From positions 1 to 34,233 of the forward strand of contig JACGMN010000007.1 of the NCBI GenBank assembly GCA_014061035.1: 34,233 nt of DNA. Direction: 5' to 3'. This DNA is from Candidatus Methanophagales archaeon (GTDB lineage Archaea; Halobacteriota; Syntropharchaeia; Alkanophagales; Methanospirareceae). The notes under the pieces were generated by a model. That model saw only the letters and a list, made by a program, of their open reading frames with translations. It ran no database searches and had not been told where the DNA came from. How positions within the stretch are numbered: position 1 is the stretch's first letter; the number at the start of each line of letters is the position of its first letter. A program made the translations under genes and the position numbers. Below, piece by piece: positions 1-26,241 of the stretch.

Positions 1-938
1 CATAGCGAATAAAAATGTTTTTTGCAATTCTCTATCTGTATTTTAGGCTCTCCGAGCTTTACACGCTCCTTGTGTTCTATCCCCACCACTTGCTTCTCAA
101 ACTCTTCTACTACGGTCTTTGAATCGCCATAGGCAATAATCTCGCCATGATCCAGCCATAACGCTTTCTCAGTTAGTTCTTTAATTGTAGAGGGCCAATG
201 CGACGTGGTTATCAAAGTCATTCCAGCCTTTGTACCATCTATCAACGCTTTATGCACCAGCTTTCCAGTCTTTACGTCCAACGTTCCTGTCGGCTCATCA
301 GCTAACAGTAGGATTGGGTCTAATGCCAGTTGCCGCGCTAGCACCACTCGCTGTTTCTCGCCGCCGCTAAGATCGGTCGCAGGAAAGCTTATTCGATGGA
401 TCATCTTTACGGCTTTCAGCAATTCATACGCCCTTCTAACGCGCTGCTCTACTGGATATTTTCTGCTATCCAATGCATGTAAGACGTTATACATGACTGT
501 CTCATCACCGTATAACCCGAACGTGCGCTGCAGCATGATAGCTACACGCCTCTTTATCTTCCTCCGTGCATCTCTATCTTTCCAGTAATTCACTTCACGC
601 AATTCTAACTTGCTCCCGCACTTGGGGCACGTCGACCCTACTTTGCTCGGAGGCTCTATCGTTCCGAGCAGTGGATGAGTCCACTCATGCAGCTCCTCTC
701 TATCTAGATAATCTGGACAGATCGCAACACTGAAGATTACCTCTCCCTGTACCGGTGCATATTCCTCCGTCCCGCGCAGCATGTGAAGCAGAACCGATTT
801 CCCTGACCCACTCCGTCCAAGCAAACCTAATGACTCGCCTTCATTTATTACTACACTCACGTTCTTCAAAACCTCTTTGCCATTAAACTCATTAGAGACG
901 TCAGAGATTCTTATGAACGGCTCACCTTTTCTGACCAT
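1..938 (-). CDS. atwA: ABC-type ATPase, 5' part only (runs off the window); resembles methyl-coenzyme M reductase system component A2 (AtwA)
   Basis: My own minus-strand translation from the ATG at 938 gives MVRKGEPFIRISDVSNEFNGKEVLKNVSVVINEGESLGLLGRSGSGKSVLLHMLRG (Walker A). It continues with a Cys-containing insert (CPDY..STCPKCGS), then LSGGEKQRVVLARQLA (ABC signature) and LLLADEPTGTLD (Walker B). The insert between Walker A and the signature matches my memory of component A2. The gene is absent from the ORF track because it is open at the window edge. Confidence 0.6.
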   Translation of the reverse strand, partial: MVRKGEPFIRISDVSNEFNGKEVLKNVSVVINEGESLGLLGRSGSGKSVLLHMLRGTEEYAPVQGEVIFSVAICPDYLDREELHEWTHPLLGTIEPPSKVGSTCPKCGSKLELREVNYWKDRDARRKIKRRVAIMLQRTFGLYGDETVMYNVLHALDSRKYPVEQRVRRAYELLKAVKMIHRISFPATDLSGGEKQRVVLARQLALDPILLLADEPTGTLDVKTGKLVHKALIDGTKAGMTLITTSHWPSTIKELTEKALWLDHGEIIAYGDSKTVVEEFEKQVVGIEHKERVKLGEPKIQIENCKKHFYSL

Positions 939-962
939 TTATTTATTCATACCTCCACTGCA

Positions 963-2093
963 TCATTCGCATTTCACAACAACTTTTTTCTCTCTTATCA
1001 GAGTACCTCGCATATATTGAGAAGTCTTTACACCTATAAATGATATGGTAATTGCGCCGAGGATAGAAGAAAAAAGTGTTAAATATCCCAGTAGATAATT
1101 ACCAGCATTTAACCAGATTATGCACATACTCCCGCCCCACAGAACCAGTCCAGAGGCAATTATAGTGGATAATATTGCCCACTGCTTCACTATTTTACCT
1201 CCTTCTATAAGCTTATTTATCATCTGTCCAATGAGAGGCGATATTGCTACCGCGGTGTACCACCAGATGCTGTGGTTTACAAAGTACACAATACTAACAA
1301 TTATATGCGCATTCTTGACATCCGGATCGATATATTCCAATCCCGCGGCACCGTGGAAGGTTCCAGCTAATATAAGCACAAATGCAACGATATATGTGAC
1401 AAACGATAGCTTACCGCTGTATAATGAATTCTTCACGCTATCAACCAATTCTATAACGAGATCCTCACGTCCGAATCCCTTGAGTATCGTGTAAAAGCCT
1501 ATAATTCCTATGATTGCCGCAATCACTATATTTGTGAAGCCGAAGAGTAAAGAAAAGGCTAATAAGAGCAAAATCAGACCGATTGGCGGCAGGAACGTAC
1601 GTGAGAACCTCGTGTCATTTAACAATCCTTTGATCATATAAAAAGTGCTCTCTAATGGCTCACTCTGTTTCACCAGTACTCGCCTGACCGAGTCTATCTT
1701 TACACGCGACTGAATAAGTGGGACAATTGATTCATCCTCGGCACCATCACTCACGAGAATGGCAGAATCTGCCCGGCATTTAAAGAGGACTTCGTCAAAT
1801 TCTCGGCCTATTTTTCTATCAGATTCTATACCTACCCTCTTATCGCCCGTGATCAAAGCGACTTCCGCTATCTCGTTCGCGTCTTCTCCACGTGAACTCA
1901 AGCGGTCATATATCCTTATTGCTTCAAAGATCGCATTTATATCGGATTCTTCAGGATCCGCGAGAGCCAGCTTTGTTGCTGCGGATAAAAGTGCCTGTTT
2001 ACCGGTAATAGGTGTCGTTAAACCGGCTTTCTCGCCCATGTCGTTGTCGCGATCAACGCAAATAACGAGCGTCTTTTTGATTTTAGACTCCAC
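963..2093 (-). CDS. Archaeal integral membrane protein, DUF373-like (soluble N-domain plus about 7 TM helices)
   Basis: 376 aa ORF. The N-terminus TLVICVDRDNDMGEKAG..SDGAEDE is followed by multiple hydrophobic helices. The family assignment is from memory. Confidence 0.55.
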   Translation of the reverse strand: MESKIKKTLVICVDRDNDMGEKAGLTTPITGKQALLSAATKLALADPEESDINAIFEAIRIYDRLSSRGEDANEIAEVALITGDKRVGIESDRKIGREFDEVLFKCRADSAILVSDGAEDESIVPLIQSRVKIDSVRRVLVKQSEPLESTFYMIKGLLNDTRFSRTFLPPIGLILLLLAFSLLFGFTNIVIAAIIGIIGFYTILKGFGREDLVIELVDSVKNSLYSGKLSFVTYIVAFVLILAGTFHGAAGLEYIDPDVKNAHIIVSIVYFVNHSIWWYTAVAISPLIGQMINKLIEGGKIVKQWAILSTIIASGLVLWGGSMCIIWLNAGNYLLGYLTLFSSILGAITISFIGVKTSQYMRGTLIREKKVVVKCE

Positions 2094-2117
2094 CCTTCTT
2101 TCTCCTTATAAAATATA

Positions 2118-2137
2118 GTTCCCTTCTGTTCCCTTCT
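2118..2137. repeat. Tandem repeat, 10 bp x 2, upstream of the DUF373 gene
   Basis: The units are GTTCCCTTCT GTTCCCTTCT. Confidence 0.8.
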
Positions 2138-2147
2138 ATTTATATCT

Positions 2148-2340
2148 AGCAGGGGTTCATGGGTTCATGGGTTCACGGTTCACGATTCACGGTTTAAGGT
2201 TAGACATATAAAAATCCTAAACTCTAATTTTCTAAATACTGAACAATTTCAAAATCCAAATATCAAAATATATACTGGATCCATGATCTATGAACCTTGA
2301 ACCGTGAACCCTGACCCCCTGGCCCCCGAACCCTGATCAG
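2148..2340. repeat. Palindromic heptad element, family-1 variant
   Basis: The left arm is GGGTTCAT GGGTTCAT GGGTTCAC GGTTCAC GATTCAC GGTTTAA GGTT. An AT-rich centre follows, then the right arm ATGAACC TTGAACC GTGAACC CTGACCC..CGAACCCTGATCAGCTA. The ends are TAGCAGGGG...CCCTGATCAGCTA. It abuts the purF stop codon. Confidence 0.8.
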
Positions 2341-3810
2341 CTATCGTTCGAATTGCGATAGTTTCAACTGGTGCAGTATACAGATTTCACCCGGTATTTC
2401 AACAGGATATTCTCCGGTTAGACAGCCTAAACAGAGATTCTCCACATCTATCCCTATGGACTCTATCAACCCTTCTATGCTCAGATACTGTATTGAATCA
2501 ACATTTAAAAACGTACCTATCTCATCAAGGGACTTCTTCCAAGCCACCAACTCCTCCCTTCTCGGAGTATCGATGCCGAGGTAACAAGGCGCTATGATTG
2601 GCGGGCTTCCGATTCGCAGATGCACCTCCTTCACACCTTTCTTCTTCAAATAATCCACGATAAGCCTCGAAGTGGTTCCACGTACGATGCTATCATCTAC
2701 CAGAATAATTCTCTTTTGCTCCACATTCGCCTGAACAACGTTTAATTTCAGCCGCACAGCAATATCTCTTGAAGTTTGCTCCGGCATGATAAAAGTCCTT
2801 CCCACATATCTGTTCTTTATAAAACTTTCCTTATAATCGATCTTTGATAGTTTTGCGTATCCTATTGCAGACGTGACGCCTGAGTCAGGTACCGGTGATA
2901 CGATGTCAGCATCGAGACTATGCTCCATTGCCAATCGCTCGCCGATTCGCATCCTCACGTCGTAGACTAACCGTCCGTCCAATATGGAATCAGGTCTCGC
3001 GAAATAGATGTATTCAAATACGCAATGAGCGCTATTTGTTCCTCTACACAATTGATGAGATTCTAAAGCAATCTCTTTTTTCCCTTGCTTTATCGGCGTC
3101 AGTATCAGCACCTCGCCCGGTCGTACATCTCGTATTAGAGTTCCACCTAACGTGTCTATCGCAGGGCTTTCGGATGCTATTATGTAGCCGTTCCCAAAAC
3201 TTCCGTCCTTTATCTCACCGATACAGAGCGGTTTAATGCCTAATGGATCTCTCACCGCTATTAATGTATTATTCACCAGAATAGCCAGTGAATAGGACCC
3301 TATCACAGATTTCATCACTTCTTTTAGTGCTTCTATCATAGAATTCCGCATCAATTTCTTCGCAAGTAACTGTGCTATCACCTCCGTATCTGTATCTGAA
3401 TGAAATATTCTGCCGTCTTGTTCCAGCTCACTTCTCAATTCCACGGCATTGACGAGATTGCCGTTATGTGCAATTGCAATCTTACCTTTCCTGTAATTCA
3501 CGAGTAAAGGTTCTGCATTCTCTATATTCGACGCGCCAGTCGTAGAGTACCTGACATGACCTATACCTAAGTTACCCTTCAACGATTCTAACCGTTGCAG
3601 CGAGAAGACATCATGGACAAATCCCATTCCTTTTATCTGTGTTATACCCGTATTCGCATCTGCACCGTTACTTTTACTTATACTTACTGCTATACCTGCT
3701 GATTCCTGTCCCCGATGTTGTAACGCGTAGAGTGCATAATAGAGTGGCAAGGCAGCACTCCCGCTGGTTAAAGCACAGCCTGCTATTCCACATGCTTCTT
3801 TTTTATCCAC
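2341..3810 (-). CDS. purF: Amidophosphoribosyltransferase (glutamine-PRPP amidotransferase)
   Basis: The N-terminal Cys nucleophile context is CGIAG, followed by LQHRGQESAGIA. The PRPP-binding motif ILVDDSIVRGTT is present, as is the C-terminal Cys cluster. Confidence 0.93.
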   Translation of the reverse strand: MDKKEACGIAGCALTSGSAALPLYYALYALQHRGQESAGIAVSISKSNGADANTGITQIKGMGFVHDVFSLQRLESLKGNLGIGHVRYSTTGASNIENAEPLLVNYRKGKIAIAHNGNLVNAVELRSELEQDGRIFHSDTDTEVIAQLLAKKLMRNSMIEALKEVMKSVIGSYSLAILVNNTLIAVRDPLGIKPLCIGEIKDGSFGNGYIIASESPAIDTLGGTLIRDVRPGEVLILTPIKQGKKEIALESHQLCRGTNSAHCVFEYIYFARPDSILDGRLVYDVRMRIGERLAMEHSLDADIVSPVPDSGVTSAIGYAKLSKIDYKESFIKNRYVGRTFIMPEQTSRDIAVRLKLNVVQANVEQKRIILVDDSIVRGTTSRLIVDYLKKKGVKEVHLRIGSPPIIAPCYLGIDTPRREELVAWKKSLDEIGTFLNVDSIQYLSIEGLIESIGIDVENLCLGCLTGEYPVEIPGEICILHQLKLSQFER

Positions 3811-3813
3811 TAT

Positions 3814-4887
3814 TTATATGCCCCAATATTCCTTTTGTACTTTCTTTACTTCTTCTACTCTTCCCGCCACCTGCTTACTCGTACTGAACTCTCCTTCTTT
3901 TGGCTCGCGGCTACGGCTACGGCTACGGCTATGACTACTTGATAAAAGTGAATTAAATACAGATAGAGCCGATTCCGCGATAGCATCCAGGTTATATCCT
4001 CCTTCCAAAGCCATTGCAATTCTTCCTCCACAGTTCTCTTCCGCTATCGCAGCTATCAGGTCCATGAATAGCCCAAAACCCGACGATGTTACGTGCATAG
4101 ATGCTAAAGGGTCTGCGGTATGTGCATCAAATCCTGCGGATACGAGCAGAAATTCCGGACCGAACTCCGCAGCTATTGGCATCAGGATATTGTTGAGCGC
4201 ATATAAATAGCCCACGTCATCAGTACCAGCCGGAAGCGGGAGGTTAACGGTAAAACCCTCCCCTTCACCTTCACCTACCTCATCTATCCCTCCTGTATGC
4301 GGATAGTGTGGATATTGATGTGTAGAAAAATACAGGACTGACCGGTCCTCGAAGAAGAGATCTTGCGTACCATTACCATGATGCACATCCCAATCGACTA
4401 TCAAAATGCGTTTAATGCCATAGTTCCGCTTCAAATGTTCAGTTGCAATCGCTAAGTTGTTGAATATACAAAAACCCATGCCTTTACTCGAAGTAGCGTG
4501 ATGTCCCGGCGGTCTCACCAGCGCGAAGACATGCTTTAGGTTATTAGATTCATCCATCACTCCATCTACAGCTTTCAGCACACCACCCGCTGCAAGTAAT
4601 GCTATATTGTACGAATCACTGCATAACGGCGTATCCGGGTCTAACATTCCACCACCTCTATCGCAGATTGCTTCTACCCTCCTTACATAAGCGTCTGTAT
4701 GCACACGCACTATATCTTCCCGCGATGCGTTTACCGGCTGAAGTCGCTCTATCCTCCCGCTCATAAGACCCTGCTCTTCCAACTTTTGCAATATGCTTAT
4801 TAATCGGTTTGCACTCTCAGGATGATTCCTACCTGTATCATGCTTCAAGTAGTCTTCGTGATAGACAAATCCAGTTGCTGTGTTCAT
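3814..4887 (-). CDS. Histone deacetylase / acetoin utilisation (AcuC) family deacetylase
   Basis: Motifs RPPGHHA, DWDVHHGNGTQ and EGGY are present. The C-terminal tail contains an SRSRSRSR repeat. Confidence 0.85.
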   Translation of the reverse strand: MNTATGFVYHEDYLKHDTGRNHPESANRLISILQKLEEQGLMSGRIERLQPVNASREDIVRVHTDAYVRRVEAICDRGGGMLDPDTPLCSDSYNIALLAAGGVLKAVDGVMDESNNLKHVFALVRPPGHHATSSKGMGFCIFNNLAIATEHLKRNYGIKRILIVDWDVHHGNGTQDLFFEDRSVLYFSTHQYPHYPHTGGIDEVGEGEGEGFTVNLPLPAGTDDVGYLYALNNILMPIAAEFGPEFLLVSAGFDAHTADPLASMHVTSSGFGLFMDLIAAIAEENCGGRIAMALEGGYNLDAIAESALSVFNSLLSSSHSRSRSRSREPKEGEFSTSKQVAGRVEEVKKVQKEYWGI

Positions 4888-4993
4888 CTCATCGTTCTAC
4901 AGGTAGTCGACTTACTAAAGAATTATATTTTTAAACGTTAAATTAATTATGATATTATAGTATTAGTATAGAGTATAGCGAAACAAATAATTT

Positions 4994-5039
4994 GAGGCTG
5001 AAGGCAGGGGAGGCTGAAGGCGGGGGAGGCTGAGGGTAG
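4994..5039. repeat. Tandem repeat, 16 bp x about 2.9, ending at the signal peptidase ATG
   Basis: The units are GAGGCTGAAGGCAGGG GAGGCTGAAGGCGGGG GAGGCTGAGGGTAG, followed directly by ATG at 5040. Confidence 0.9.
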
Positions 5040-5558
5040 ATGAAAAAAATATTAATCGAACTGTGTAGAGGTCTGATAGAGGCGCTGGTAATTGTTGTCC
5101 TCATAGTCTCAGTAGCATACGCAGCTACGGGGTCGTGGCATATAGGATTTGCTATTGAGTCCGGGAGCATGGAACCAAATATGAATGAAGGTGATTTAAT
5201 CTTCGTGCAAGCGCCGCAGCGCACAGATATTGTAACATACGAAGACGGTAAACTGCTCAATCATAGGTCATTCGGCGATTATGGTGACGTTATCATCTTT
5301 CGTCCAGATGGGCTAAACGATGTAACGCCAATAATACACCGTGCGATGTACTGGGTAGAGGCCGGAGAGAAGATGCCGAATGATAAGCCTGCGCCACATG
5401 CGGGGTTTATAACTAAAGGAGATAATAATCCTGATTATGATCAGTCAGCGTTTATGCTCGGAATTGAGCCGGTGAAGCCTGAATGGGTGATAGCGGTGGC
5501 GAGAATACAGGTACCGTACTTGGGGTATCCCTCGCTCATCTTGAGGAAAGCTTTTTAA
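5040..5558 (+). CDS. Archaeal-type signal peptidase I (Sec11/S26B-like)
   Basis: An N-terminal TM helix is followed by the SGSMEP catalytic Ser box, the IIHRA His box and GDNN. Confidence 0.8.
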   Translation: MKKILIELCRGLIEALVIVVLIVSVAYAATGSWHIGFAIESGSMEPNMNEGDLIFVQAPQRTDIVTYEDGKLLNHRSFGDYGDVIIFRPDGLNDVTPIIHRAMYWVEAGEKMPNDKPAPHAGFITKGDNNPDYDQSAFMLGIEPVKPEWVIAVARIQVPYLGYPSLILRKAF

Positions 5559-5565
5559 ACAGAAG

Positions 5566-5589
5566 ATTAGACGATAAATTAGACGATAA
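5566..5589. repeat. Tandem repeat, 12 bp x 2, upstream of rpl10e
   Basis: The units are ATTAGACGATAA ATTAGACGATAA. Confidence 0.85.
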
Positions 5590-5616
5590 GATAGAGAAAT
5601 AAGGAACTAAATAAAA

Positions 5617-6117
5617 ATGGGTAGAAAGCCAGCTCGTATGTACACGAGAGTCTCAGGACATGCATTTGTGCGCAAAGAATATATGAAAGGGGTTCCAGGT
5701 AGCAAGATAGCTATCTTCGATATGGGCAATCCCGGCGGAGAGTTTCACGCCACTTTGTTTTTAGTCGCAAAGGAAGCTTGTCAAATACGGCACAATGCAT
5801 TGGAAGCCGCGCGGATATTCGCGAACAGGTATCTGGTGAAAGGTGTCGGGCGGAAGAATTTCTACCTGAAGATACGAGTGTATCCGCATCACGTTCTGAG
5901 AGAGAACAAGCTGGCAACCGGTGCAGGTGCAGACCGGATATCGAGTGGTATGCGACAGGCATTTGGGAGACCGATCGGGACAGCAGCGCGGGTGAAGAGA
6001 GGACAGAAGATGCTGAGCGTCGGGATCGATGAGCAGAATCTCGAGTACGCAAAGGAAGCGTTGGAGCGCGCAAGTTATAAACTGCCTACACCGTGTAAGA
6101 TTGTTAGAGATAAATGA
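5617..6117 (+). CDS. rpl10e: 50S ribosomal protein L10e (uL16)
   Basis: [11 protein letters not shown]...[15 protein letters not shown] is a typical L10e N-terminus. The ORF is 166 aa. Confidence 0.93.
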
Positions 6118-7304
6118 AAAAAGTAGTGCTTGCCTATTCCGGTGGATTGGACACTTCGGTCTGCATTCCACTGTTGCGAGAGCATTATGGCTATGACGAA
6201 GTAATTTCCGTGCTGGTGGACGTAGGACAGCAGGAAGCAGATATAATCAGGGCTGTAGAAAGGGGCAAGAGGCTCAGTGACATATTCAAGCTGATAAATG
6301 CTCAGGACGAATTTGTCTCTGATTACATCTTCCCGTTGATAAAAGCGAACGGTAACTACGAGGGCTATGTGCTTGGGACCGCGATCGCGAGATCATTAAT
6401 AGCAAAGAAAGTGGTAGAAGTTGCGAAGGACGAGAATGCAGAAGCCGTAGCACATGGCTGCACCGGCAAAGGTAACGATCAGCTCAGATTTGATGCCGTC
6501 TTCTGGGCTGCTGACCTGGATGTTATCGCACCGGTAAGAGAGCTGAGTTTGACACGTGAAGAAGAGAAGAAATATGCATTGGAGCATGGCATCTCGTTTG
6601 AAGCAGAGAAGAGGTGGAGCATAGACGAAAATATCTGGAGCCGGAGTATAGGCGGTAGTGAATTAGAGAATCCTGCTTTTTTTCCGCCTGAAGAAGTATA
6701 TCAATGGACTGTTTCTCAAGATAAGGCGCCGGACAATGCAGATATTATAAAGATCGAGTTCGCGCAGGGTATCCCGGTCTCGGTGGACGGACAAAGTACT
6801 ACCACTACCGGCGTATCGCTTATAAATGCGTTGAACAAAGTGGGTGGCAAGCACGGCGTTGGTAGAACAGATATGATCGAAGATCGGGTCCTTGGCTACA
6901 AGGCACGAGAGACGTATGAGCATCCCGCCGCCACGATATTATTGGAAGCGCATCGTGATCTCGAACGACTTGTTCTAACAAGAAACGAGTTGAGGTTCAA
7001 AGAGTTTGTTGATAGGACGTGGAGTGAGCTGGTATATCAGGGTTTAGTCATGGACCCGCTGTATGATGCTCTTAATGCCTTTATAGAGAGGACGCAGGAG
7101 AGGGTGAACGGTGCAGTATATGTGAAGCTGGAGAGGGGTCTTGCACGCGTAGTGGGAAGAGAATCGAAGAACTCGTTATATTCTTCTACTGACGTATCAT
7201 TTGAGACAAGGCAGGAGCAAGGGCAGAAAGGGCAGGGGCAAGGGATAGTCGAAGGTTTCTCTATCTATCACAGTTTTCAGGCGCGAAAGTTCAGTGAATT
7301 GTAA
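6114..7304 (+). CDS. argG: Argininosuccinate synthase
   Basis: AYSGGLDTS is the ATP pyrophosphatase P-loop. [14 protein letters not shown] is also present. The start overlaps the L10e stop by 4 nt. Confidence 0.95.
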
Positions 7305-7315
7305 ATATGCAGTAA

Positions 7316-7460
7316 CTACTTAGGTTGCCAGGTTCAAGGTTCAAGGTTCGGGGTTCTTCGCATTATCTTCATACTGCAAGCTTATGTTCTTCGTTTTCTA
7401 ATCTTGAACCTTGAACCTCAAATCGTGAACCGTGAACCCAGGAACTTTGAACCTGAGTAG
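7316..7460 (+). repeat. Palindromic heptad element, family 1, full copy A
   Basis: The TIR is CTACTTAGGTT...AACCTGAGTAG. The left arm is CAGGTTCAAGGTTCAAGGTTCGGGGTTC. The core is TTATGTTCTTCGTTTTCTAA. The right arm is TCTTGAACCTTGAACC..CGTGAACCGTGAACC. It fills the argG/nadX spacer. Confidence 0.85.
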
Positions 7461-8309
7461 CTACCCCAGACGCATAGAAAAAGATATGCGTTTCAGTGTT
7501 GCTATTGCAGAAAGGCTTGTTAAATAGCTCGTCTTTGGATTAGCAACCGAGGGGACGTTTCTTACACGGACGAATAAATCACCAAAATCTCCTCTTGCCT
7601 TTATTTCATGACTGTTCACTTTCGCAGCAGGGTCTGCAACTATCTTCACCTTTACCTCTGTATATGGACTCATACATGCAATGCACAATGTCGCAGCGAC
7701 ATTTACATTCTCAGGAAAATGCCTCACCGCTTCTTTCGCTGAGCCTATAAACAATGTTGTTGCCTCCTTTATCGATGAGAGATTTATCCCACGTTCTCTG
7801 ATATACGCATTCCCTTCGAATACCTGCGGATGCTTTCTCGTCGTTAATTCTACTGAATCGATTCTCCCAACGGCGCCGGCTTTGAGTCCATCTATCCCCG
7901 CTACAGCACCTGAAGGGATATACACCCCACATCCTTTCTCCTTTGAGATGCGTTCTATCTCTCCAAAAAGAGACGGATCGCTGAGTAGTGCACCGACACT
8001 CAAGATCATTACTTCTTTACGCTTTTTTAATGCCGGTATCAGATACTCACGAACTGCCGCCTGCGAGGCACACTCAATTACCAGATCGATCTCGTCTAAA
8101 ATTTCATCAAGTTCGGTACTATCTGTTTTTACTATCTCTGGCTTCTTTAAAAGAGTTTCACAGAGCGTCTCTATCTTCTCTGGACTGATGTCGATCAGAA
8201 ATTTTAACTCCATTCCTAAGTTTAACCTGCGGCTATTTACTTCATCCGTGTCTATTGCCTTGCAGATCTCACTTCCGATAGCGCCACAGCCAACAACGCC
8301 CACTCTCAT
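7461..8309 (-). CDS. nadX: L-aspartate dehydrogenase
   Basis: MRVGVVGCGAIG is a Rossmann motif. PSGAVAGIDGLKA, FPENVNVAATL and VADPAA..N.HEI...NPKTS match the NadX family from memory. Confidence 0.88.
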   Translation of the reverse strand: MRVGVVGCGAIGSEICKAIDTDEVNSRRLNLGMELKFLIDISPEKIETLCETLLKKPEIVKTDSTELDEILDEIDLVIECASQAAVREYLIPALKKRKEVMILSVGALLSDPSLFGEIERISKEKGCGVYIPSGAVAGIDGLKAGAVGRIDSVELTTRKHPQVFEGNAYIRERGINLSSIKEATTLFIGSAKEAVRHFPENVNVAATLCIACMSPYTEVKVKIVADPAAKVNSHEIKARGDFGDLFVRVRNVPSVANPKTSYLTSLSAIATLKRISFSMRLG

Positions 8310-8354
8310 TTTTTTATAGTATATTTGATCGATTAATAATATATTATAATATAT

Positions 8355-9077
8355 ATGACGCGACCTTTTGTCTTTATAAATGCCGCAATGAGCGCAGACG
8401 GGAAGATCTCGACGGTAGAACGAAAGCAGACGAGAATAAGCGGTACGGAAGATATTGACAGGGTTGATTCACTGAAAGCAGGAAGCGATGCAATAATGGT
8501 CGGCATCGGCACTATTTTAGCTGATAACCCGTCTTTAACGGTGAAATCCGAAAGTAGAAGAGAGAAGAGAGATAAAGTAGGGAAGGATGCAAATCCCATC
8601 CGAATTGTAGTCGATAGCACGGCAAGAACACCGGTTGATGCTGAGATATTGAATAAAGGCGAGGGCAAACGGATCATTGCAGTTTCACAACGAGCAATTT
8701 TAGAGGACATCGATCTGTTAAGCAAGAAAGCGGATATTCTGGTCTGTGGCACTGAAAAAGTCGACTTGAAAGAGCTACTTCATATCTTGTGGCTGCGTGG
8801 TCTGCGCCGGGTGATGGTAGAAGGCGGTGCAACGCTGAACTGGTCCTTGATCTCAGAACAACTCGTTGACGAGATATATACATATATTGGCAATATGATA
8901 CTCGGCGGAGAAAGAGCACCCACGCTTGTGGATGGCGAAGGGTTCAAACTCGGCGGCGAGACGACTGGTGGGATAGTAAAGCTGGAGTTGTTACGTATGG
9001 TGAAACTGGACGCTGGTCTTTTACTGCAGTGGCGTGTTCAAGGTTCTCAGGGTTCAGGGTTCACGGTTCCGGGTTAG
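8355..9077 (+). CDS. 2,5-diamino-6-ribosylamino-4(3H)-pyrimidinone 5'-phosphate reductase (RibD C-terminal domain family)
   Basis: The sequence reads RPFVFINAAMSADGKIS...GSDAIMVGIGTILADNPSLTV...VEGGATLNWSL. The last ~14 codons and the stop lie inside a repeat element (see findings). Confidence 0.8.
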   Translation: MTRPFVFINAAMSADGKISTVERKQTRISGTEDIDRVDSLKAGSDAIMVGIGTILADNPSLTVKSESRREKRDKVGKDANPIRIVVDSTARTPVDAEILNKGEGKRIIAVSQRAILEDIDLLSKKADILVCGTEKVDLKELLHILWLRGLRRVMVEGGATLNWSLISEQLVDEIYTYIGNMILGGERAPTLVDGEGFKLGGETTGGIVKLELLRMVKLDAGLLLQWRVQGSQGSGFTVPG

Positions 9078-9151
9078 AAAACGATGAACATAACCCAGTA
9101 TGAAGATAAGGCAACCAATTGTGAACCGTGTGAACCTGACAACCTAAGTAG
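9036..9151 (-). repeat. Palindromic heptad element, family 1, copy C (inverted orientation)
   Basis: The reverse complement reads CTACTTAGGTTGTCAGGTTCA...TTATCTTCATACTG..TTATGTTCATCGTTTTCTAA..GGAACCGTGAACCCTGAACC. It aligns by eye with copies A and B. Confidence 0.8.
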
Positions 9152-9217
9152 CACGTTCTGCCGTTCGTGGATTCATCAACTATCACAAGATATATGAAGG
9201 GTTGCAAGGCGAACAAC

Positions 9218-9260
9218 CGTGAACCCTGAATCCTGAACCGTGAACCGTGAACCCTGAACC
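9218..9260. repeat. Isolated array of six TGAACC-type heptads (family-1 arm only)
   Basis: The array reads CGTGAAC CCTGAAT CCTGAAC CGTGAAC CGTGAAC CCTGAAC. Confidence 0.75.
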
Positions 9261-9299
9261 TATAAGAAGCCCCTTAAATATAATGTTTACGTTAGTATA

Positions 9300-9327
9300 A
9301 TTTACTTTGTAGCATTTACTTTGTAGC
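9300..9327. repeat. Tandem repeat, 14 bp x 2, about 30 nt upstream of tRNA-Ile
   Basis: The units are ATTTACTTTGTAGC ATTTACTTTGTAGC. Confidence 0.85.
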
Positions 9328-9358
9328 ACGCACACCACGCACTGAGGTGTAAGAACAA

Positions 9359-9433
9359 GGGCTCGTAGCTTAGCACGGTTGGAGCGCTCGGCTGATAACC
9401 GAGAGGTCCGGAGTTCAAATCTCCGCGGGCCCA
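9359..9433 (+). tRNA. tRNA-Ile (anticodon GAU)
   Basis: Hand-folded cloverleaf of 75 nt. The acceptor stem is GGGCTCG/CGGGCCC. The anticodon stem is CTCGG/CCGAG with loop CTGATAA. The T-arm is CGGAG-TTCAAAT-CTCCG and the discriminator is A. Confidence 0.9.
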
Positions 9434-9442
9434 TCAACAAAC

Positions 9443-9450
9443 TTTTTTTT
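9443..9450 (+). terminator. Oligo-T tract (T8) 10 nt downstream of tRNA-Ile, candidate archaeal terminator
   Basis: A run of eight T follows the tRNA 3' end. Archaeal RNA polymerase terminates at oligo-T tracts. Confidence 0.5.
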
Positions 9451-9473
9451 AGCGGAGAAAATAGGAGAGTGGA

Positions 9474-9842
9474 ATGGGGATAGAGACAAGGATGATTTTA
9501 ATCTCACCGGATTCTAAGATAACGGTAGGGCAGATGGCGGGTAAGATTCTGTCTGTTATCAGTGACAATGCGGAGATGGCGGACGCGGAGATCAGAGTAA
9601 AAGAGACCTGTTTTGGTGCATTTGTGGAAGGCGATGCGAAGAAAGTAAAAGCGATAGTGGATGAGGTAAGAAAGATGGACCCGAACGGAATTTTTTCAAA
9701 GTTACGCGGGTTTCCGATCGGCGACAAGCGGATATGTAGAGCAACGAGGAAAGGCGGACCCAGACCCGGGTTTCACCAGTTAGAACAGGAATCTCAACTG
9801 CTGCCTAAGGTGCGAAGAGCACTGGATAAGAATAAGATATAA
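9474..9842 (+). CDS. Methanogenesis marker protein 6-like small protein
   Basis: 122 aa. ISPDS.ITVGQ...VKETCFGAFVEGD...VRKMDPNGIF...GFPIGD.R.CRA.R.GG.RPGF resembles marker 6 from memory. No search was run. Confidence 0.55.
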   Translation: MGIETRMILISPDSKITVGQMAGKILSVISDNAEMADAEIRVKETCFGAFVEGDAKKVKAIVDEVRKMDPNGIFSKLRGFPIGDKRICRATRKGGPRPGFHQLEQESQLLPKVRRALDKNKI

Positions 9843-9903
9843 AGCAACTACACTACTACTACTATCTATATTAAGCACATACAATAAAAGAGAGTTAACT
9901 ACG

Positions 9904-11112
9904 ATGTATACAGGTGAAGCACTGATAGGGAAAGGATCTGAGGTTGCACACATCGATTTGCTGATCGGAGATAAATATGGACCTGTGGGCGTAGCGTTCG
10001 CAAACGCTTTAAGTCAAATGTCTGCGGGGCACACGCCGCTGCTTGCCGTGATAAGGCCAAATCTTCCGGTTAAGCCGCCTACACTGATCGTGCCGAAGGT
10101 TACGGTGCGAAACATGAAGGATGCGGAAAGGATATTTGGGCCGGCGCAGAGTGCAATAGCAAAGGCGGTTGCAGACTCTGTAGAGGAAGAGGTAATACCA
10201 GAGGACAAGGCTGAGAATTATATGGTAATTGTGAGCGTCTTCATCCATCCGGCCGCGCGAGATTACAATAAAATCTACAGGTACAACTACGGATCTGCGA
10301 AGTTAGCGATAAAGAGGGCGATGGATGGTTTTCCAGATATTAAAAAGGTGTTATATGAGAAGGACAGGTCGAGACATCCCTCACTTGGCATGAAAGTGAC
10401 AAAATTATGGGACCCGCCATATTTGCAGGTTGCTCTGGACATCCCAAATTGGGAGCATATTAAACGCGTGATTTCGAAACTGCCGCGGAGCGATCATTTA
10501 ATTATAGAGGCAGGAACGCCATTGATAAAGCAATATGGTCTCGATATAATAGGAAAGATAAAGGAGATAAAGCCTGATACGTTTGTAGTTGCAGATTTGA
10601 AGACGCTGGATACAGGTGATCTGGAAGCACGGATGGTCGTTGATTCCGGCGCTGATGCCGTGGTGATCTCAGGGTTAGCCCCTCTCAGGACTATAGAGAA
10701 GGCAATATCTGAGGCGGTGAAGACCGGTATCTACTCTGTCATCGATATGCTCAACGTGAAGAATCCTGTAGACTTGCTCAAGGAGTTAAGCGGTGCCGGA
10801 GCGACGATGCCGGATGTGGTGGAACTGCACCGTGCAATAGATGTGGAAGAGCTGGGAGAGAAGTATGCTTGGGGAAACATAACTGAGATAAAGCGATTAC
10901 AGTCTGGTAAAGGCAGTAACAGCAGGATACTGGTAGCAGTTGGGGGCGGGATACGAGAAGAGAATGCCCCGGATGCGTTAAAGGCTGGTGCAGATATTTT
11001 AGTAGTCGGACGGGGAATAACGAACGCTGGGGACGTAGAAGCTGCAAGTAGAAGGCTCTTGCGGCTGATGAAGGAAGAGATAGACCAGTACCGCGTAATG
11101 ACAGACTTCTGA
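9904..11112 (+). CDS. fae-hps: Bifunctional formaldehyde-activating enzyme / 3-hexulose-6-phosphate synthase (Fae-Hps fusion)
   Basis: The N-terminal half is [19 protein letters not shown]...GHTPLLAV (Fae). The C-terminal half is LQVALD...ADLKTLDTG...VGRGIT (OMP decarboxylase/Hps fold). Confidence 0.88.
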
Positions 11113-12163: not shown

Positions 12164-13039
12164 TCAAAATACCGCAAATATAATGAGCGTTACGCATCGT
12201 GCGAGTTCGTTAGAAGCACCCATGACATCGCCACTTATTGCACCAAAATTCTGTCTCGCTACGTAAGAGAGAAAAAATGCGACTATGACGCCTGTGAAGA
12301 CAATAATGAAATAAAACGAAGCGGTAAAGAGTACAGCAATAAGCACGGCAGAAAGAAGAGCAGCTATGTATTTCCGTACCGAAAAAGAGCGTATAAACAG
12401 AGTTCCCATACCCTGCACAGCTCCATTCTCATTCCCATTCCCCGCCCCATTTTTACCTTCACTCACGAATCCCTTGCCTGGTAGTGCCAGTACCATACAC
12501 GTATTCATACTCAGTTTTGCAGAGACCTCGGCGATTATGAATACTGCAGCAAAATCATAAACCGTGATGGGATCGAGATACAGAAGATTGAAGTCAAAAG
12601 CAGCCACTGTGGATATAAATTCTGCACCTACAGTCTCTATGGCAGATAAACTCAATAGGAGAAGAATGATAACAGCGAACAATCCCGCTATTCCTATTTT
12701 AGCGTCCTTCATCGCTCTTCTCTTCTCTGCTCTGCTTCCCTGCGCCATCAGACCATCAGAGAAATCCGCTAAACCATCAATGTGCAGCAGACCGGTGAGA
12801 AGGTAAAGAACGAGCAGCGTGAGCAAAGCGGCAATTTCAGCTCTTGCCGGCACTGCCACGACTAAAAATCCAAAAACGATAAAAGCAACTACAGCGACGA
12901 TCAAGCCAATCAATAACCCGACAAAAGGAAAAAGATGGCTATTTACTGTAACTGCATCTATATTTACTACCTTTTTTACCGGTATTTGCGTTAAGAAACT
13001 GATAAGATCACGCATATCTTCAAGCCGTTCAATCTTCAT
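12164..13039 (-). CDS. cobS: Adenosylcobinamide-GDP ribazoletransferase (cobalamin synthase)
   Basis: FLTQIPV and the HIDGLADFSDG motif are present in a polytopic membrane protein. It contains a G/N-rich insert. Confidence 0.8.
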   Translation of the reverse strand: MKIERLEDMRDLISFLTQIPVKKVVNIDAVTVNSHLFPFVGLLIGLIVAVVAFIVFGFLVVAVPARAEIAALLTLLVLYLLTGLLHIDGLADFSDGLMAQGSRAEKRRAMKDAKIGIAGLFAVIILLLLSLSAIETVGAEFISTVAAFDFNLLYLDPITVYDFAAVFIIAEVSAKLSMNTCMVLALPGKGFVSEGKNGAGNGNENGAVQGMGTLFIRSFSVRKYIAALLSAVLIAVLFTASFYFIIVFTGVIVAFFLSYVARQNFGAISGDVMGASNELARCVTLIIFAVF

Positions 13040-13099
13040 CGCTCTAATCGTGATGCGTGAACTAAACCTTACACCCTGAACCCTTAAACCTAAGACTAC
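13040..13099. repeat. Degenerate family-1 half element (core end plus right arm)
   Basis: TCATCGCTCTAATCGTGATGCGTGAAC...CCTGAACCCTTAAACCTAAGACTACC compares with copy B TCATCGTTTTCTAATCGTGAACCATGAACC..GAACTTTGAACCTGAGTAGTCACC. Confidence 0.55.
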
Positions 13100-13435
13100 C
13101 TACCTCTTCTCTACCACCACAAAGCTTTTTGTCTTGCTCAGCGGTCGGCATTCTGCTATCTTCACTAGATCACCGATTTTTGCATTTATGCAGAGCGGGT
13201 TGTGTGCATGTATCTTTGACTTCCGCTTCTCATATCGTTCATATTTCTTGATTCTCTTAAAGTACGACCGCAGGACAACGACCGTCTTTGGCGTTTTATC
13301 GCTTACCACCTTACCTTCTAAGACCTGTCCTCTTACCGGCAACAGCCCATGAAACGGGCAGTTAACATCTTCACATTCTATCTCGGGCGTCCTGACGTCT
13401 ATCCCTATATCTTTATCTTTGTATGTCTCTTTCAT
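13100..13435 (-). CDS. rps17: 30S ribosomal protein S17 (uS17)
   Basis: CPFHG.L.VRG..L.G.VVS.K..KTVVV is present. It is the last gene of the r-protein operon. Confidence 0.9.
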
Positions 13436-18984: not shown

Positions 18985-19015
18985 CTTGCTCTTTCTTCTG
19001 ATATATTATATTTAT

Positions 19016-19045
19016 CAATGCTTACCAATGCTTACCAATGCTTAC
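19016..19045. repeat. Tandem repeat, 10 bp x 3, in the leader of the L3 operon
   Basis: The units are CAATGCTTAC CAATGCTTAC CAATGCTTAC. Confidence 0.9.
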
Positions 19046-21605: not shown

Positions 21606-21629
21606 ACTTTCATCATAGATAAATTGTAA

Positions 21630-21797
21630 CTACTCAGGTTGCCAGGTTCAAGGTTCAAGGTTCAAGGTTCAAGGTTTAAGGTTCAAGGTTCACGGTTGTC
21701 AAGCTTGCGCTCTTCATTCTTCATATTTCTTGAGATAGTTTATGGTCATCGTTTTCTAATCGTGAACCATGAACCCCGGAACTTTGAACCTGAGTAG
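21630..21797 (+). repeat. Palindromic heptad element, family 1, full copy B
   Basis: The TIR is CTACTCAGGTT...AACCTGAGTAG. The left arm has ~7-8 heptads (GGTTCAA x4, GGTTTAA, GGTTCAA, GGTTCAC). The core is TTATGGTCATCGTTTTCTAA. The right arm is TCGTGAACCATGAACC. Confidence 0.88.
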
Positions 21798-21859
21798 TCA
21801 CCATAACATAACGTATAACTGTTCTTGAATATATTAAACAAGAGATAATTAACCAGAAG

Positions 21860-25510: not shown

Positions 25511-26197
25511 ATGAAATACGACCTGCACATCCACTCAAAATACTCGGCAGATGGTGTTCTTGAACCTGAAAAGATCGTGAAAATCGCGATGCGAGTAGGG
25601 CTTGATGGAATCGCAGTAACAGATCACGAGACGATAAAAGGCGGGGTAAAAGCAAAGAAATATGAAAATGATGATCTCATCGTGATAGTTGGTTCGGAAA
25701 TAGAAACCGAGAGAGGAGAGATAATTGGTCTTTTTCTTGAAGAAGAAGTCAAATCAAGGAGTCTTCAGGAGGTCATCGATGAGATTAAAGATCAAAACGG
25801 TATAGCTGTGGTACCGCATCCTTTTGATAGATTAAGGCGTCTCACATTTCATCCAACAGAAGAAGATGTAAAATTCATAGATTGTATCGAGGGCTTCAAT
25901 TCACGGTGCGTATTTCAGCGATACAATAAGAGAGCGATAGAGTATGGAATAGAACATGGCTTAGCGATTACTGCTGGAAGTGACGCACATTTCGGAGGGC
26001 AAATCGGAGACGCGTTTATTTTAGCGGAATCTTCAGATGAGGAAGACTTGATGAGAAGAATCATGAAAAAAGAGATTAGTTTCAATGGAAGATTGAGCAA
26101 CCCTTTATATTTAGTCATTGGAAAGGTGCTTACTCAGGTTCAAAGTTTCAGGGTTCACGGTTCAAGGTTAGACAACAGATCAAGATTGAACGAGTAG
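25511..26197 (+). CDS. PHP-domain metal-dependent phosphoesterase
   Basis: YDLHIHS.YS.DG, G.DGIAVTDHET, PHPFD and AGSDAH are present. The last ~22 codons and the stop lie inside a repeat element. Confidence 0.8.
   Translation: MKYDLHIHSKYSADGVLEPEKIVKIAMRVGLDGIAVTDHETIKGGVKAKKYENDDLIVIVGSEIETERGEIIGLFLEEEVKSRSLQEVIDEIKDQNGIAVVPHPFDRLRRLTFHPTEEDVKFIDCIEGFNSRCVFQRYNKRAIEYGIEHGLAITAGSDAHFGGQIGDAFILAESSDEEDLMRRIMKKEISFNGRLSNPLYLVIGKVLTQVQSFRVHGSRLDNRSRLNE
26130..26197 (-). repeat. Short (about 68 bp) family-1 derivative
   Basis: It reads TTACTCAGGTTCAAAGTTTCAGGGTTCACGGTTCAAGGTTAGAC...GATTGAACGAGTAG. The first 45 nt match the reverse complement of the right end of copies A and B. Confidence 0.7.
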
Positions 26198-26241
26198 GCG
26201 AACAAGTGTGGACACGAGTGAAAGGAATTGCAACCAAGCTA

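What the first reader, a model, noticed from the sequence alone, without database searches (positions are those of the whole stretch)
7316..7460. Family of palindromic heptad-repeat (GGTTCA[N]) MITE/REP-like elements sitting at gene 3' ends
Seen directly: at least three full copies share one architecture (7316-7460, 21630-21797, and 9036-9151 inverted).
- Terminal inverted repeat CTACT(C/T)AGGTT...AACCTGAGTAG.
- Left arm of tandem GGTTCAA/GGTTCAC heptads.
- Conserved non-palindromic core TTATG(T/G)TC(T/A)TCGTTTTCTAA.
- Right arm of TGAACC heptads.
Derivatives lie at 26130-26197 (short), 2148-2340 (different centre), 13040-13099 (half) and 9218-9260 (arm only).

Every copy lies within about 25 nt of a stop codon, and several abut one exactly. 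This copy occupies nearly the whole convergent argG/nadX spacer.

Inference: this behaves like a bacterial REP/BIME or a MITE. The arms should fold into a long hairpin, so the element could act as a terminator or RNA-stability element, or be the substrate of a trans-acting transposase. I do not recognise this element from described archaeal repeat families. The conserved asymmetric core argues for more than simple slippage.
Basis: partly seen in the sequence, partly recalled or inferred. Interest (0 to 1): 0.72.

Follow-up and report, generated by a model that had tools for sequence, protein, structure and literature searches.

The report
Decayed bacterial-type MITEs in ANME-1 archaeon
The palindromic heptad-repeat elements are real: they are decayed, non-autonomous DNA transposons (MITEs) cut down from a small mobile cassette that carries a "23S rRNA intervening-sequence" four-helix-bundle gene. 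In the public genomes searched the family is otherwise found only in bacteria, so this methane-oxidising archaeon probably acquired it across the domain boundary.

Summary
The 34-kb archaeal (ANME-1/Methanophagales-like) window holds seven copies or fragments of one repeat family. Each has termini GTAACTACTCAGGTT…AACCTGAGTAGTTAC, a GGTTCAN heptad arm, a conserved core and a TGAACC heptad arm.

It is a MITE, not a REP/BIME and not a terminator.
- **Transposition:** of 78 complete copies fetched from bacterial MAGs, 27 have perfect 8-bp target-site duplications.
- **Parent element:** full-length relatives (~490 bp) carry an intact 130-aa four-helix-bundle gene (PF05635/TIGR02436, the "23S rRNA IVS protein") and no transposase.
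- **Core:** The window copies are internal-deletion relics.
- **Likely mobiliser:** the GTAACTAYTCAG termini plus 8-bp duplications match ISBst12-group (IS66-family) insertion sequences. Mobilisation in trans by such a transposase is inferred; no such transposase was found.
- **Insertion history:** a syntenic relative has empty argG/nadX and ribD/tRNA-Ile sites and shares one older copy.
- **Side effects:** the insertions rewrote gene ends (NadX stop codon, RibD and PHP tails, CobS start).
- **Not supported:** no 3'-end preference appears in bacteria, and there is no RNA covariation and no T-tract.

All 134 other host contigs found are bacterial by record title.

The parts
2150..2340 (.). Old, diverged copy in the purF-to-DUF373 spacer. 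It has a heptad arm at 2153-2203, an unrelated AT-rich centre, and a heptad arm at 2283-2336 that ends about 5 nt from the purF stop (2341-2343).
   Evidence: nhmmer E=9e-8; sequence. The purF-proximal arm and the start of the centre align with the same spacer of the syntenic relative L214, which lacks the distal ~113 nt. This insertion therefore predates the split of the two lineages.
7312..7464 (+). The reported copy. It fills the convergent argG/nadX spacer.
- Left terminus: 7312-7327
- GGTTCAN heptads: 7328-7357
- Core (reverse complement of the four-helix-bundle gene start): 7382-7401
- TGAACC heptads: 7402-7449
- Right terminus: 7450-7464

The TAG at 7461-7463 on the minus strand, inside the right terminus, is now the nadX stop codon.
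   Evidence: E=9e-16; z=-5.4. In L214 the same spacer is 9 bp, and NadX ends ...HLGR* instead of ...RLG*. A 99%-identical strain (L216) has the same filled site.
9036..9154 (-). 122-bp-type short copy with its gene remnant on the plus strand. It is joined directly to the ribD_C coding sequence and has lost its terminus on that side. It encodes the last 13 residues and the stop of the RibD_C ORF (VQGSQGSGFTVPG*).
   Evidence: (E=1e-19). The native C-terminus in L214 is LQWRLLGKE*, against LQWR|VQGSQGSGFTVPG* in the window. It has the same internal deletion junction as bacterial copies L085, L090, L150, L193 and L222.
9155..9265 (+). Fragment of a second, longer copy. It holds a C-terminal remnant of the four-helix-bundle ORF (9154-9198, RSAVRGFINYHKIYE), then a TGAACC heptad arm (9215-9260) and a degenerate terminus. 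It lies upstream of tRNA-Ile (9359-9433).
   Evidence: The full-length element L208 aligns here with E=3.8e-13. tblastn of P0001 residues 107-121 gives 80% identity. It is absent from the L214 ribD/tRNA-Ile spacer.
13013..13099 (-). Half copy between the rps17 stop (13100) and cobS. It comprises a terminus, heptads, the ribosome-binding region and the first nine codons of the four-helix-bundle ORF. Its ATG (13037-13039, minus strand) now heads the cobS ORF (MKIERLEDM...).
   Evidence: (E=6e-3 and 8e-5; MKIERLEDM against MKIERFEDI). The Pfam CobS match begins only at residue 13.
21626..21801 (+). Full-ended copy with eight left heptads. It lies 20 nt after the glycosyltransferase stop and 59 nt before the acylphosphatase start. 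It keeps C-terminal gene remnants (INYLKKYEE, KNEERKLDNREP on the minus strand) and the core at 21741-21760.
   Evidence: (E=5e-22; 100% over residues 114-122) and TRF 7.7 copies with 93% matches.
26128..26193 (+). Half copy comprising a damaged terminus, heptads and the gene start, where ATG has mutated to ATC. The PHP-domain ORF (25511-26197) runs through it, so about its last 22 residues and its stop are element-derived. It lies in the convergent spacer with the amidohydrolase gene (stop at 26242).
   Evidence: (E=3e-13). The Pfam PHP_C match ends at residue 187 of 228.

Best explanation
The elements are relics of a non-autonomous terminal-inverted-repeat DNA transposon.

**Parent cassette (shown).** The parent is a ~490-bp cassette with this layout:
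1. terminus GTAACTACTCAGGTT;
2. GGTTCAN heptads;
3. a 130-aa four-helix-bundle gene (PF05635, '23S rRNA intervening-sequence protein', Avd-like) on the opposite strand;
4. TGAACC heptads;
5. terminus AACCTGAGTAGTTAC.

It carries no transposase. The last five codons and the stop of the gene are encoded by the heptads.

**Short forms (shown).** Internal deletions give 90-220-bp MITE forms. The window holds seven such forms or fragments.

**Insertion (shown for bacteria).** Insertion makes 8-bp target-site duplications.

**Mobilising enzyme (inferred).** The enzyme is an ISBst12-group (IS66-family) DDE transposase acting in trans. This is inferred because those insertion sequences have the same termini (GTAACTAYTCAG) and the same 8-bp duplication.

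**Origin in the archaeon (inferred).** The family entered an ANME-1 lineage from bacteria of the same anoxic sediments and inserted repeatedly over time. One copy is shared with a relative; others are lineage-specific. The copies are now decaying.

**Role today (inferred).** In this genome the copies are best seen as selfish or neutral DNA. Their visible effects are collateral:
- they supply stop codons and new C-terminal tails (NadX, RibD_C, PHP protein);
- they supply a start codon (CobS).
For: **Transposition**
- 27 of 78 complete bacterial copies have perfect 8-bp duplications, and 8 more have one mismatch.
- Some copies are nested inside other copies.

**Cargo gene**
- The repaired L179 interior hits PF05635 at 41.3 bits (cut-off 33.8) and TIGR02436 at 35.2 bits (cut-off 24).
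- There are more than 5,260 relatives, and the listed top hits are mostly intact 130-aa proteins, many ending ...NREP.
- The intact element L208 1436-1923 is flanked by the duplication GAAGGAAT and holds no other gene.
- Gene remnants lie in the window at 9154-9198, 21686-21743 and 13013-13039.

**Termini**
- ISDge4 has termini GTGACTACTCAGCA and GTAACTGCTCAGCA with an 8-bp repeat (PMC12898284).
- The ISBst12-group IS on plasmid pHTA426 has GTATCTATTCAGCCC and GTAACTATTCAGCCC with the duplication GACGAGTT.
- An ISBst12-group IS is listed from Methanosarcina mazei (PMC12612534).

**Archaeal host**
- The window encodes RNase P p29, aIF1, aIF2-beta, L15e, L10e and Fae-Hps.
- The relative L214 carries mcrA and mcrG.

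**Insertion polymorphism**
- L214 has empty argG/nadX and ribD/tRNA-Ile sites.
- L214 shares one truncated copy with the window.
- L216 reproduces the filled sites in an independent data set.

**Bacterial distribution**
- All 134 element-bearing species-representative contigs have bacterial titles.
- The L090 copy with a perfect duplication lies upstream of rpmH, a bacteria-only gene.
- The same deletion junction occurs in window copy 9036-9154 and in bacterial copies, at 84-92% identity.
Against: - None of the window copies has a recognisable 8-bp duplication. The flanks of 7312-7464 match at 1-2 of 8 positions and those of 21626-21801 at 5 of 8. Transposition inside the archaeon is therefore inferred from empty sites only.
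- No ISBst12-type transposase was found in the window or in 1.6 Mb of held loci. No autonomous element with these exact termini was found.
- The match to ISBst12-group termini covers only about 12 bases.
- MAG titles are not proof of taxonomy.
- Window copies are as far from each other (82-85%) as from bacterial copies. A single entry followed by a burst is therefore not shown.
Confidence: 0.8

Rival explanations
1. REP/BIME- or REPIN-like extragenic palindromes, spread by a RAYT (IS200/IS605-type Y1 transposase).
For: The elements are palindromic, intergenic and multi-copy, and they fold stably. A GTAG motif lies in the termini.
Against: - Units are 90-490 bp with 15-nt terminal inverted repeats, not 20-40-nt palindromes.
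- Perfect 8-bp target duplications are frequent. By established knowledge, Y1 transposition does not make such duplications.
- No RAYT or TnpA gene is in the window.
- None recurs beside 127 loci.
Confidence: 0.03
2. Host-selected RNA elements, such as transcription terminators or RNA-stabilising 3' hairpins, that happen to look like transposons.
For: Predicted hairpins are strong, with z from -3.4 to -6.4. Six of the seven window sites lie within about 25 nt of a stop codon. The heptad counts of the two arms are correlated, rho=0.65.
Against: - No T-tract follows the stems.
- By established knowledge, archaeal termination relies on oligo-T and does not need hairpins.
- Substitutions in the stems mostly break pairs, and the covariation term is unfavourable.
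- There is no Rfam family match.
- In bacteria the copies show no enrichment at 3' ends and sit in divergent spacers as often as expected.
- Orientation relative to neighbouring genes is mixed.
- The arm-length correlation is also expected from common descent.
Confidence: 0.07
3. Intervening-sequence-type elements that act at the RNA level. On this reading they are stem-loops excised by a double-strand RNase, as in 23S rRNA of Leptospira and Coxiella, and they spread by recombination rather than transposition.
For: The architecture is the same as the Coxiella IVS: terminal inverted repeats forming a long stem, an AG-rich ribosome-binding region, tandem heptamers of variable number, and an S23p four-helix-bundle ORF (PMC4990558). 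The cargo gene is the Pfam '23S rRNA IVS protein'.
Against: - None of the copies examined is in an rRNA gene. No 23S gene is present in the held loci.
- Target duplications show DNA-level insertion.
- By established knowledge, most Euryarchaeota lack RNase III.

This rival is better read as kinship than as an alternative. The rRNA IVSs may be copies of such cassettes that landed in rRNA.
Confidence: 0.08
4. Assembly or binning artefact: bacterial repeat DNA wrongly joined into an archaeal contig.
For: All other hosts found are bacterial. Repeats are a known cause of chimeric joins.
Against: - Seven copies are spread over a 34-kb contig whose genes are archaeal throughout.
- The junctions are in frame with archaeal genes.
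- An independent assembly (Logan SRR27899021, L216) has the same junctions.
- A relative from another sample (L214) shares one degraded copy.
Confidence: 0.01

Closest known systems
MITEs and mobile insertion cassettes (MICs): non-autonomous derivatives of insertion sequences, such as Correia elements, RUP, Nezha and MIC231.
   Same: - Small size and terminal inverted repeats.
- Target-site duplications.
- No transposase.
- Many copies, mostly intergenic.
- Strong predicted hairpins.
- ORF fusions with neighbouring genes. These are general MITE features listed in PMC3184786.
   Different: - The parent is not a cut-down transposase-bearing IS. It is a cassette with a passenger four-helix-bundle gene.
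- The subterminal arms are tandem heptads of variable number.
- The family spans many bacterial phyla and one archaeal lineage at 84-92% identity.
ISBst12 group of the IS66 family (ISDge4, the pHTA426 element, ISMma15).
   Same: The termini begin GTAACTAYTCAG, and insertion makes an 8-bp target-site duplication.
   Different: - Those insertion sequences are 1.6-kb elements with a 450-485-aa DDE transposase.
- Here there is no transposase.
- Similarity of the ends stops after about 12 bases.
- No cognate IS was found.
23S rRNA intervening sequences with an S23p ORF (Leptospira, Coxiella burnetii).
   Same: - An inverted-repeat stem.
- An AG-rich ribosome-binding region.
- Tandem heptamers of variable number before the start codon.
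- A PF05635 ORF prone to deletion.
- Evidence of horizontal spread (PMC4990558).
   Different: - The location is intergenic rather than helix 9, 25 or 45 of 23S rRNA.
- The heptad sequence differs (GGTTCAN against GACAGAT).
- Target duplications are documented here. In the one IVS paper read here (2016), the origin of the IVS was described as unclear.
REP/BIME/REPIN elements.
   Same: Extragenic, palindromic, repeated, and often found after genes.
   Different: These elements are longer, have true terminal inverted repeats and 8-bp duplications, carry a gene remnant inside, and have no RAYT partner.

Membership tests
MITE / mobile insertion cassette | Terminal inverted repeats | tested here: met
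   GTAACTACTYAGGTT / AACCTGAGTAGYTAC at 7312-7464 and 21626-21801 and in 78 bacterial copies.
MITE / mobile insertion cassette | Target-site duplication flanking the element | tested here: inconclusive
   The feature is met in bacteria: 27 of 78 perfect 8-bp duplications, 8 more with one mismatch, and the intact L208 flanked by GAAGGAAT. It is not seen at any of the window copies.
MITE / mobile insertion cassette | No transposase gene inside; small size | tested here: met
   Copies are 73-594 bp. The full-length form holds only the 130-aa PF05635 gene.
MITE / mobile insertion cassette | Filled and empty sites in related genomes | tested here: met
   The L214 argG/nadX spacer is 9 bp against 156 bp in the window. 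The ribD/tRNA-Ile spacer of L214 has no element.
MITE / mobile insertion cassette | A cognate autonomous IS with the same ends in the same or related genomes | tested here: not met
   There is no transposase between matching ends in 240 loci. tblastn with an ISBst12-group transposase finds nothing in 1.6 Mb. Whole host genomes could not be searched.
IS66 family, ISBst12 group (as source of the ends) | Termini starting GTAA and an 8-bp duplication | tested here: met
   The ends GTAACTACTCAG match ISDge4 and the pHTA426 element at 11-12 of the first 12 bases. The duplications are 8 bp.
IS66 family, ISBst12 group (as source of the ends) | DDE_Tnp_IS66 transposase gene | tested here: not met
   The gene is absent from the elements, the window and the held loci.
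REP/BIME/REPIN | Short (20-40 nt) imperfect palindrome units, no target duplication, RAYT partner | tested here: not met
   Units are 90-490 bp with 8-bp duplications. No RAYT gene was seen.
23S rRNA intervening sequence (S23p type) | Inserted in helix 9, 25 or 45 of 23S rRNA and excised by RNase III | tested here: not met
   All window copies are intergenic or at gene ends. There is no rRNA in the window and no 23S gene in the held loci. Excision cannot be tested with these tools.
23S rRNA intervening sequence (S23p type) | Inverted-repeat stem enclosing a PF05635 ORF preceded by tandem heptamers | tested here: met
   L208 shows this architecture, Pfam confirms the ORF, and the Coxiella IVS description matches it. 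The window holds only remnants of the ORF.
Intrinsic terminator | GC-rich hairpin followed by a T-tract | tested here: not met
   No terminator-like site coincides with the elements in 7200-9400.
Structured RNA family | Rfam match or compensatory base changes | tested here: not met
   There is no Rfam hit, only a chance miRNA hairpin at E=0.15. The covariation term is +1.64 and stem substitutions break pairs.

The most novel reading that the evidence does not exclude
Two linked claims that the evidence does not exclude.

1. A bacterial MITE and cassette family crossed into an ANME-1 archaeon from the sulfate-reducing and other bacteria it lives among. It then transposed there repeatedly, which would make it a clear case of inter-domain spread of a non-coding mobile element.
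2. The four-helix-bundle ('S23p', Avd-like) cassettes known for thirty years as 23S rRNA intervening sequences are ordinary cut-and-paste or copy-paste passengers of ISBst12/IS66-type transposases. That would explain the inverted repeats, heptamers and patchy distribution of the IVSs. It would also raise the question of what the conserved cargo protein does for the element.
Probability: 0.45. Interest if true: 0.72.

Novelty: new member of a known kind. Interest (0 to 1): 0.55.

Why it matters
**For this genome.** It explains several odd gene ends (NadX, RibD_C, a PHP protein, CobS). It also warns annotators that about 2.6% of the window is transposon debris fused to ORFs.

**More broadly.**
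- It ties the very large, functionally unexplained PF05635/TIGR02436 family (more than 5,000 close relatives of this subfamily alone) to a concrete mobile cassette with measurable target duplications.
- It names a candidate transposase class.
- It offers a testable origin for rRNA intervening sequences.

**For ANME ecology.** The presence of this otherwise bacterial family in a methanotrophic archaeon gives a nucleotide-level marker of DNA exchange between syntrophic partners.

Tried and rejected
**Known RNA families.** An Rfam gathering scan of the window and an E-value scan of 7250-9320 gave nothing relevant.

**Search for the mobilising transposase.**
- Clustering of all ORFs of at least 150 aa from 127 element loci gave only housekeeping families.
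- A search for any pair of matching termini 0.9-3.5 kb apart gave only a SelA gene between two separate copies (L192) and a 1,563-bp composite in L203 without a transposase.
- tblastn with the pHTA426 ISBst12-group transposase against all held DNA gave no hit.

**Other collections.**
- BLAST of the full element against plasmids and phages gave no match.
- A scan of viral contigs for the left end gave none, so there is no evidence for a viral vehicle.
- A metagenome scan with the window-type variant CTAATC gave seven contigs that all look bacterial. That substitution is therefore not archaeon-specific.

**Comparisons with related genomes.**
- The argG loci of 80 archaea could not serve as empty sites, because nadX is not adjacent there. 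Synteny was found instead through NadX homologues.
- A search for copies inside 23S rRNA genes found no 23S gene in the held loci.

**Literature.**
- Searches found no description of this family.
- Ralph & McClelland 1993 is not held.

**Explanations considered and rejected.** These were simple slippage, a REP/RAYT system, a terminator, a diversity-generating retroelement (DGR) accessory locus (no reverse transcriptase nearby), and an assembly chimera.

Full report
**1. The observation**

The sequence at 7316-7460, 21630-21797 and 9036-9151 is as described, and so are the four derivatives. Two adjacent GGTTCAN heptads, allowing one mismatch, occur 25 times in the window against 0.12 expected from shuffles. 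Tandem Repeats Finder reports period-7 arrays at all the sites.

A profile built only from 25 copies found in bacterial genomes recovers seven sites in the window:
- 2150-2332
- 7312-7464
- 9033-9152 (minus strand)
- 9152-9265
- 13002-13099
- 21626-21801
- 26126-26215

The same profile finds nothing in 505 kb of DNA from 80 other archaeal genomes. The copies fold better than shuffled controls, with z from -3.4 to -6.4.

**2. The host**

The window is an archaeal chromosome segment.
- It encodes RNase P subunit p29, aIF1/SUI1, aIF2-beta, ribosomal proteins L15e and L10e, a Fae-Hps fusion, Thi4, DUF373 and DUF2102, and an archaeal-type ribosomal protein cluster.
- Its ArgG is at most 82% identical to those of ANME-1/Methanophagales MAGs.
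- A syntenic relative carries mcrA and mcrG.
- No transposase gene is present in the window.

**3. The family outside the window**

- Scanning one genome per species for the core found true copies in four bacterial MAGs or SAGs.
- The GCC variant of the left end found 24 contigs.
- Every one of the 134 element-bearing contigs has a bacterial title. Most are Desulfobacterota, including SEEP-SRB2, EthSRB1 and many cold-seep MAGs. Others are Nitrospirota/Thermodesulfovibrionales, Dehalococcoidia and other Chloroflexota, Elusimicrobia, Thermotogae and others.
- One copy (L090) lies just upstream of rpmH, which encodes ribosomal protein L34, a bacteria-only protein by established knowledge.
- Viral contigs, plasmids and phages gave nothing.

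**4. It is a transposon**

Seventy-eight copies with both ends were extracted.
- 27 have a perfect 8-bp direct repeat immediately outside GTAAC...GTTAC.
- 8 more have one mismatch, and 3 have two.
- By simple probability, fewer than 0.01 perfect cases are expected by chance.
- Several copies without a duplication are nested in another copy. They share the right flank TCTTCATC, which is element sequence.

This is the signature of staggered-cut transposition.

**5. What the interior is**

Longer copies read, on the reverse strand, as an ORF beginning MKIERFEDIEAWQ.
- A repaired version hits Pfam PF05635 (23S rRNA intervening sequence protein) at 41.3 bits against a cut-off of 33.8. It hits TIGR02436 (four helix bundle protein) at 35.2 bits against 24.
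- A protein search finds more than 5,260 relatives. The best are intact 130-aa proteins ending ...KKYEERKPTNREP.
- In locus L208 the intact gene (1501-1893) sits between the two heptad arms and termini. It is flanked by the 8-bp duplication GAAGGAAT and there is no other gene in the element.
- The last codons and the stop of the gene are encoded by the heptads (ACC AAC CGT GAA CCG TGA).

The window holds further remnants:
- RSAVRGFINYHKIYE at 9154-9198;
- INYLKKYEE and KNEERKLDNREP at 21686-21743;
- MKIERLEDM at 13013-13039.

The window copies are therefore internal-deletion derivatives of a passenger-carrying, transposase-less cassette.

**6. Which transposase**

The ends and the duplication length point to the ISBst12 group of the IS66 family.
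- ISDge4 has termini GTGACTACTCAGCA and GTAACTGCTCAGCA, an 8-bp direct repeat and a single 449-aa transposase (PMC12898284).
- I read the ends of the ISBst12-group element on Geobacillus kaustophilus plasmid pHTA426. Its termini are GTATCTATTCAGCCC and GTAACTATTCAGCCC, with the 8-bp duplication GACGAGTT.
- The element here has GTAACTACTCAGGTT.
- IS66 proper starts GTAAGCG and also makes 8-bp repeats (PMC11946415).
- An ISBst12-group IS (ISMma15) is listed from Methanosarcina mazei, so the enzyme class exists in archaea.

No such transposase was found in the window or in 1.6 Mb of held loci. No autonomous element with these ends turned up either. This step is therefore inferred, not shown.

**7. 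History in the archaeon**

Locus L214 (JGI 3300032103) has the same gene order as window positions 1-11,100, and its NadX is 85% identical.
- **argG/nadX.** The spacer is 9 bp in L214 against 156 bp in the window. L214 NadX ends HLGR-TAA, whereas the window's ends RLG-TAG, and that TAG is bases 2-4 of the element terminus GTAGCTAC.
- **ribD/tRNA-Ile.** The L214 spacer has no element. L214 RibD_C ends LQWRLLGKE*, whereas the window has LQWR followed by 13 element-encoded residues.
- **purF/DUF373.** The L214 spacer does contain a homologous heptad arm and the start of the AT-rich centre, but it lacks the distal ~113 nt. That copy therefore predates the split.
- **Independent confirmation.** A 99%-identical strain from an independent data set (L216, Logan SRR27899021) has the same filled sites.

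Insertions thus accumulated over time in this lineage. None of the window copies keeps a recognisable duplication, and several have lost a terminus, so they are old. Window copies are 84-92% identical to bacterial copies and 82-85% identical to each other. Copy 9036-9154 has exactly the same deletion junction as the 122-bp form found in several bacterial MAGs. This argues for common descent of that short form across the two domains.

**8. Function**

- **Terminator.** No terminator-like T-tract follows the stems.
- **Structured RNA.** In an alignment of eight copies the covariation term is unfavourable, and stem substitutions mostly break pairs.
- **3'-end preference.** In bacterial loci the copies lie in 43 tandem, 9 divergent and 2 convergent spacers, against 242, 30 and 34 such spacers overall, and only one lies inside an ORF. 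The only rule is therefore 'intergenic'. In the window, 4 tandem and 2 convergent spacers with 0 of 7 divergent is not significant (about 0.24 by simple probability).
- **Why the copies abut stop codons.** This follows from very short archaeal spacers and from ORFs that read into the element until they meet a stop.
- **Heptad counts.** They vary from 0 to 15 per arm, and the two arms are correlated (rho 0.65). Common descent may account for this. Whether the heptads bind a protein is unknown.

**9. Comparison with what is known**

The kind is known: a MITE, or in its full form a mobile insertion cassette.

The nearest described relatives by architecture are the S23p-type intervening sequences of 23S rRNA. 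The Coxiella IVS has the following (PMC4990558):
- terminal inverted repeats forming a 28-bp stem;
- an AG-rich leader;
- tandem heptamers of variable number;
- an S23p ORF prone to deletion.

That paper states that the origin of these elements is unclear and cites old proposals of transposition.

I found no paper in the held library that describes these cassettes outside rRNA, their 8-bp duplications, their IS66-type ends or any archaeal host. I therefore file it as a new member of a known kind. A more novel reading, inter-domain spread plus an explanation for rRNA IVSs, remains open.

**10. Limits**

- Host taxonomy rests on MAG titles plus a few marker genes.
- One scan was truncated.
- The archaeal genome beyond this window was not available.
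- The transposase is not identified.
- No expression data exist.

Noticed in passing
window 13013-13039 (minus strand), cobS ORF 12164-13039: The annotated start of the cobS ORF (MKIERLEDM...) is the start codon and first codons of the element's four-helix-bundle gene. A second in-frame ATG follows at codon 9. The element may therefore supply the translation start, or merely lengthen the predicted ORF.
   Followed up: partly
window 12164-13435: The ribosomal protein cluster (L3, L4, L23, L2, S19, L22, S3, ..., aIF1, RNase P p29, S17) is followed directly by the half element and cobS, not by the usual L14/L24/S4e genes. The operon seems to be broken at the element.
   Followed up: no
L203 5651-7213: A 1,563-bp segment is bounded by the same termini and a perfect 8-bp duplication (TATGGGTA). 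It holds a truncated four-helix-bundle gene, unrelated DNA with small reverse-strand ORFs, and two short copies. This suggests larger composite units can move.
   Followed up: partly
L109, L125, L173, L178, L202: Several Desulfobacterota contigs carry a copy nested inside another copy, with the same right flank (TCTTCATC, element sequence) in each case. This is either a propagated composite or a preferred target inside the element.
   Followed up: no
L091, L094, L096, L107, L114, L131, L184, L199, L206: Other short GC-rich palindromes (for example GCCTGCCTGTGCG...CGCAGACAGGC and AGGCCTGCCCCCGGCCGCAGGCCCAGGGG) are inserted inside many bacterial copies. They look like a second, smaller repeat family that targets these elements.
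   Followed up: no
window 9300-9328, 19012-19045, 28251-28302, 31394-31436: Other tandem repeats, unrelated to the finding, were reported by TRF:
- a 14-nt unit x2 just upstream of tRNA-Ile;
- a 10-nt unit x3.4 between rpl3 and acnX;
- a 12-nt unit x4.3 inside the enolase gene;
- TAC x14 inside the aminotransferase gene.
   Followed up: no
window 7210-7244 (ArgG C-terminal region): The end of ArgG contains a low-complexity Q/G/K-rich stretch ([11 protein letters not shown]) encoded by an imperfect 12-nt repeat. The C-terminal residues (..SEL*) differ from those of the relative L214 (..HKSKSL*).
   Followed up: no
L010, L002, L013: ANME-1-type argG loci appear in MAGs titled Desulfobacteria, Bathyarchaeia and Nitrosotalea. 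Some MAG labels or bins in these seep data sets are therefore unreliable, which is a caution for the host assignments used here.
   Followed up: no
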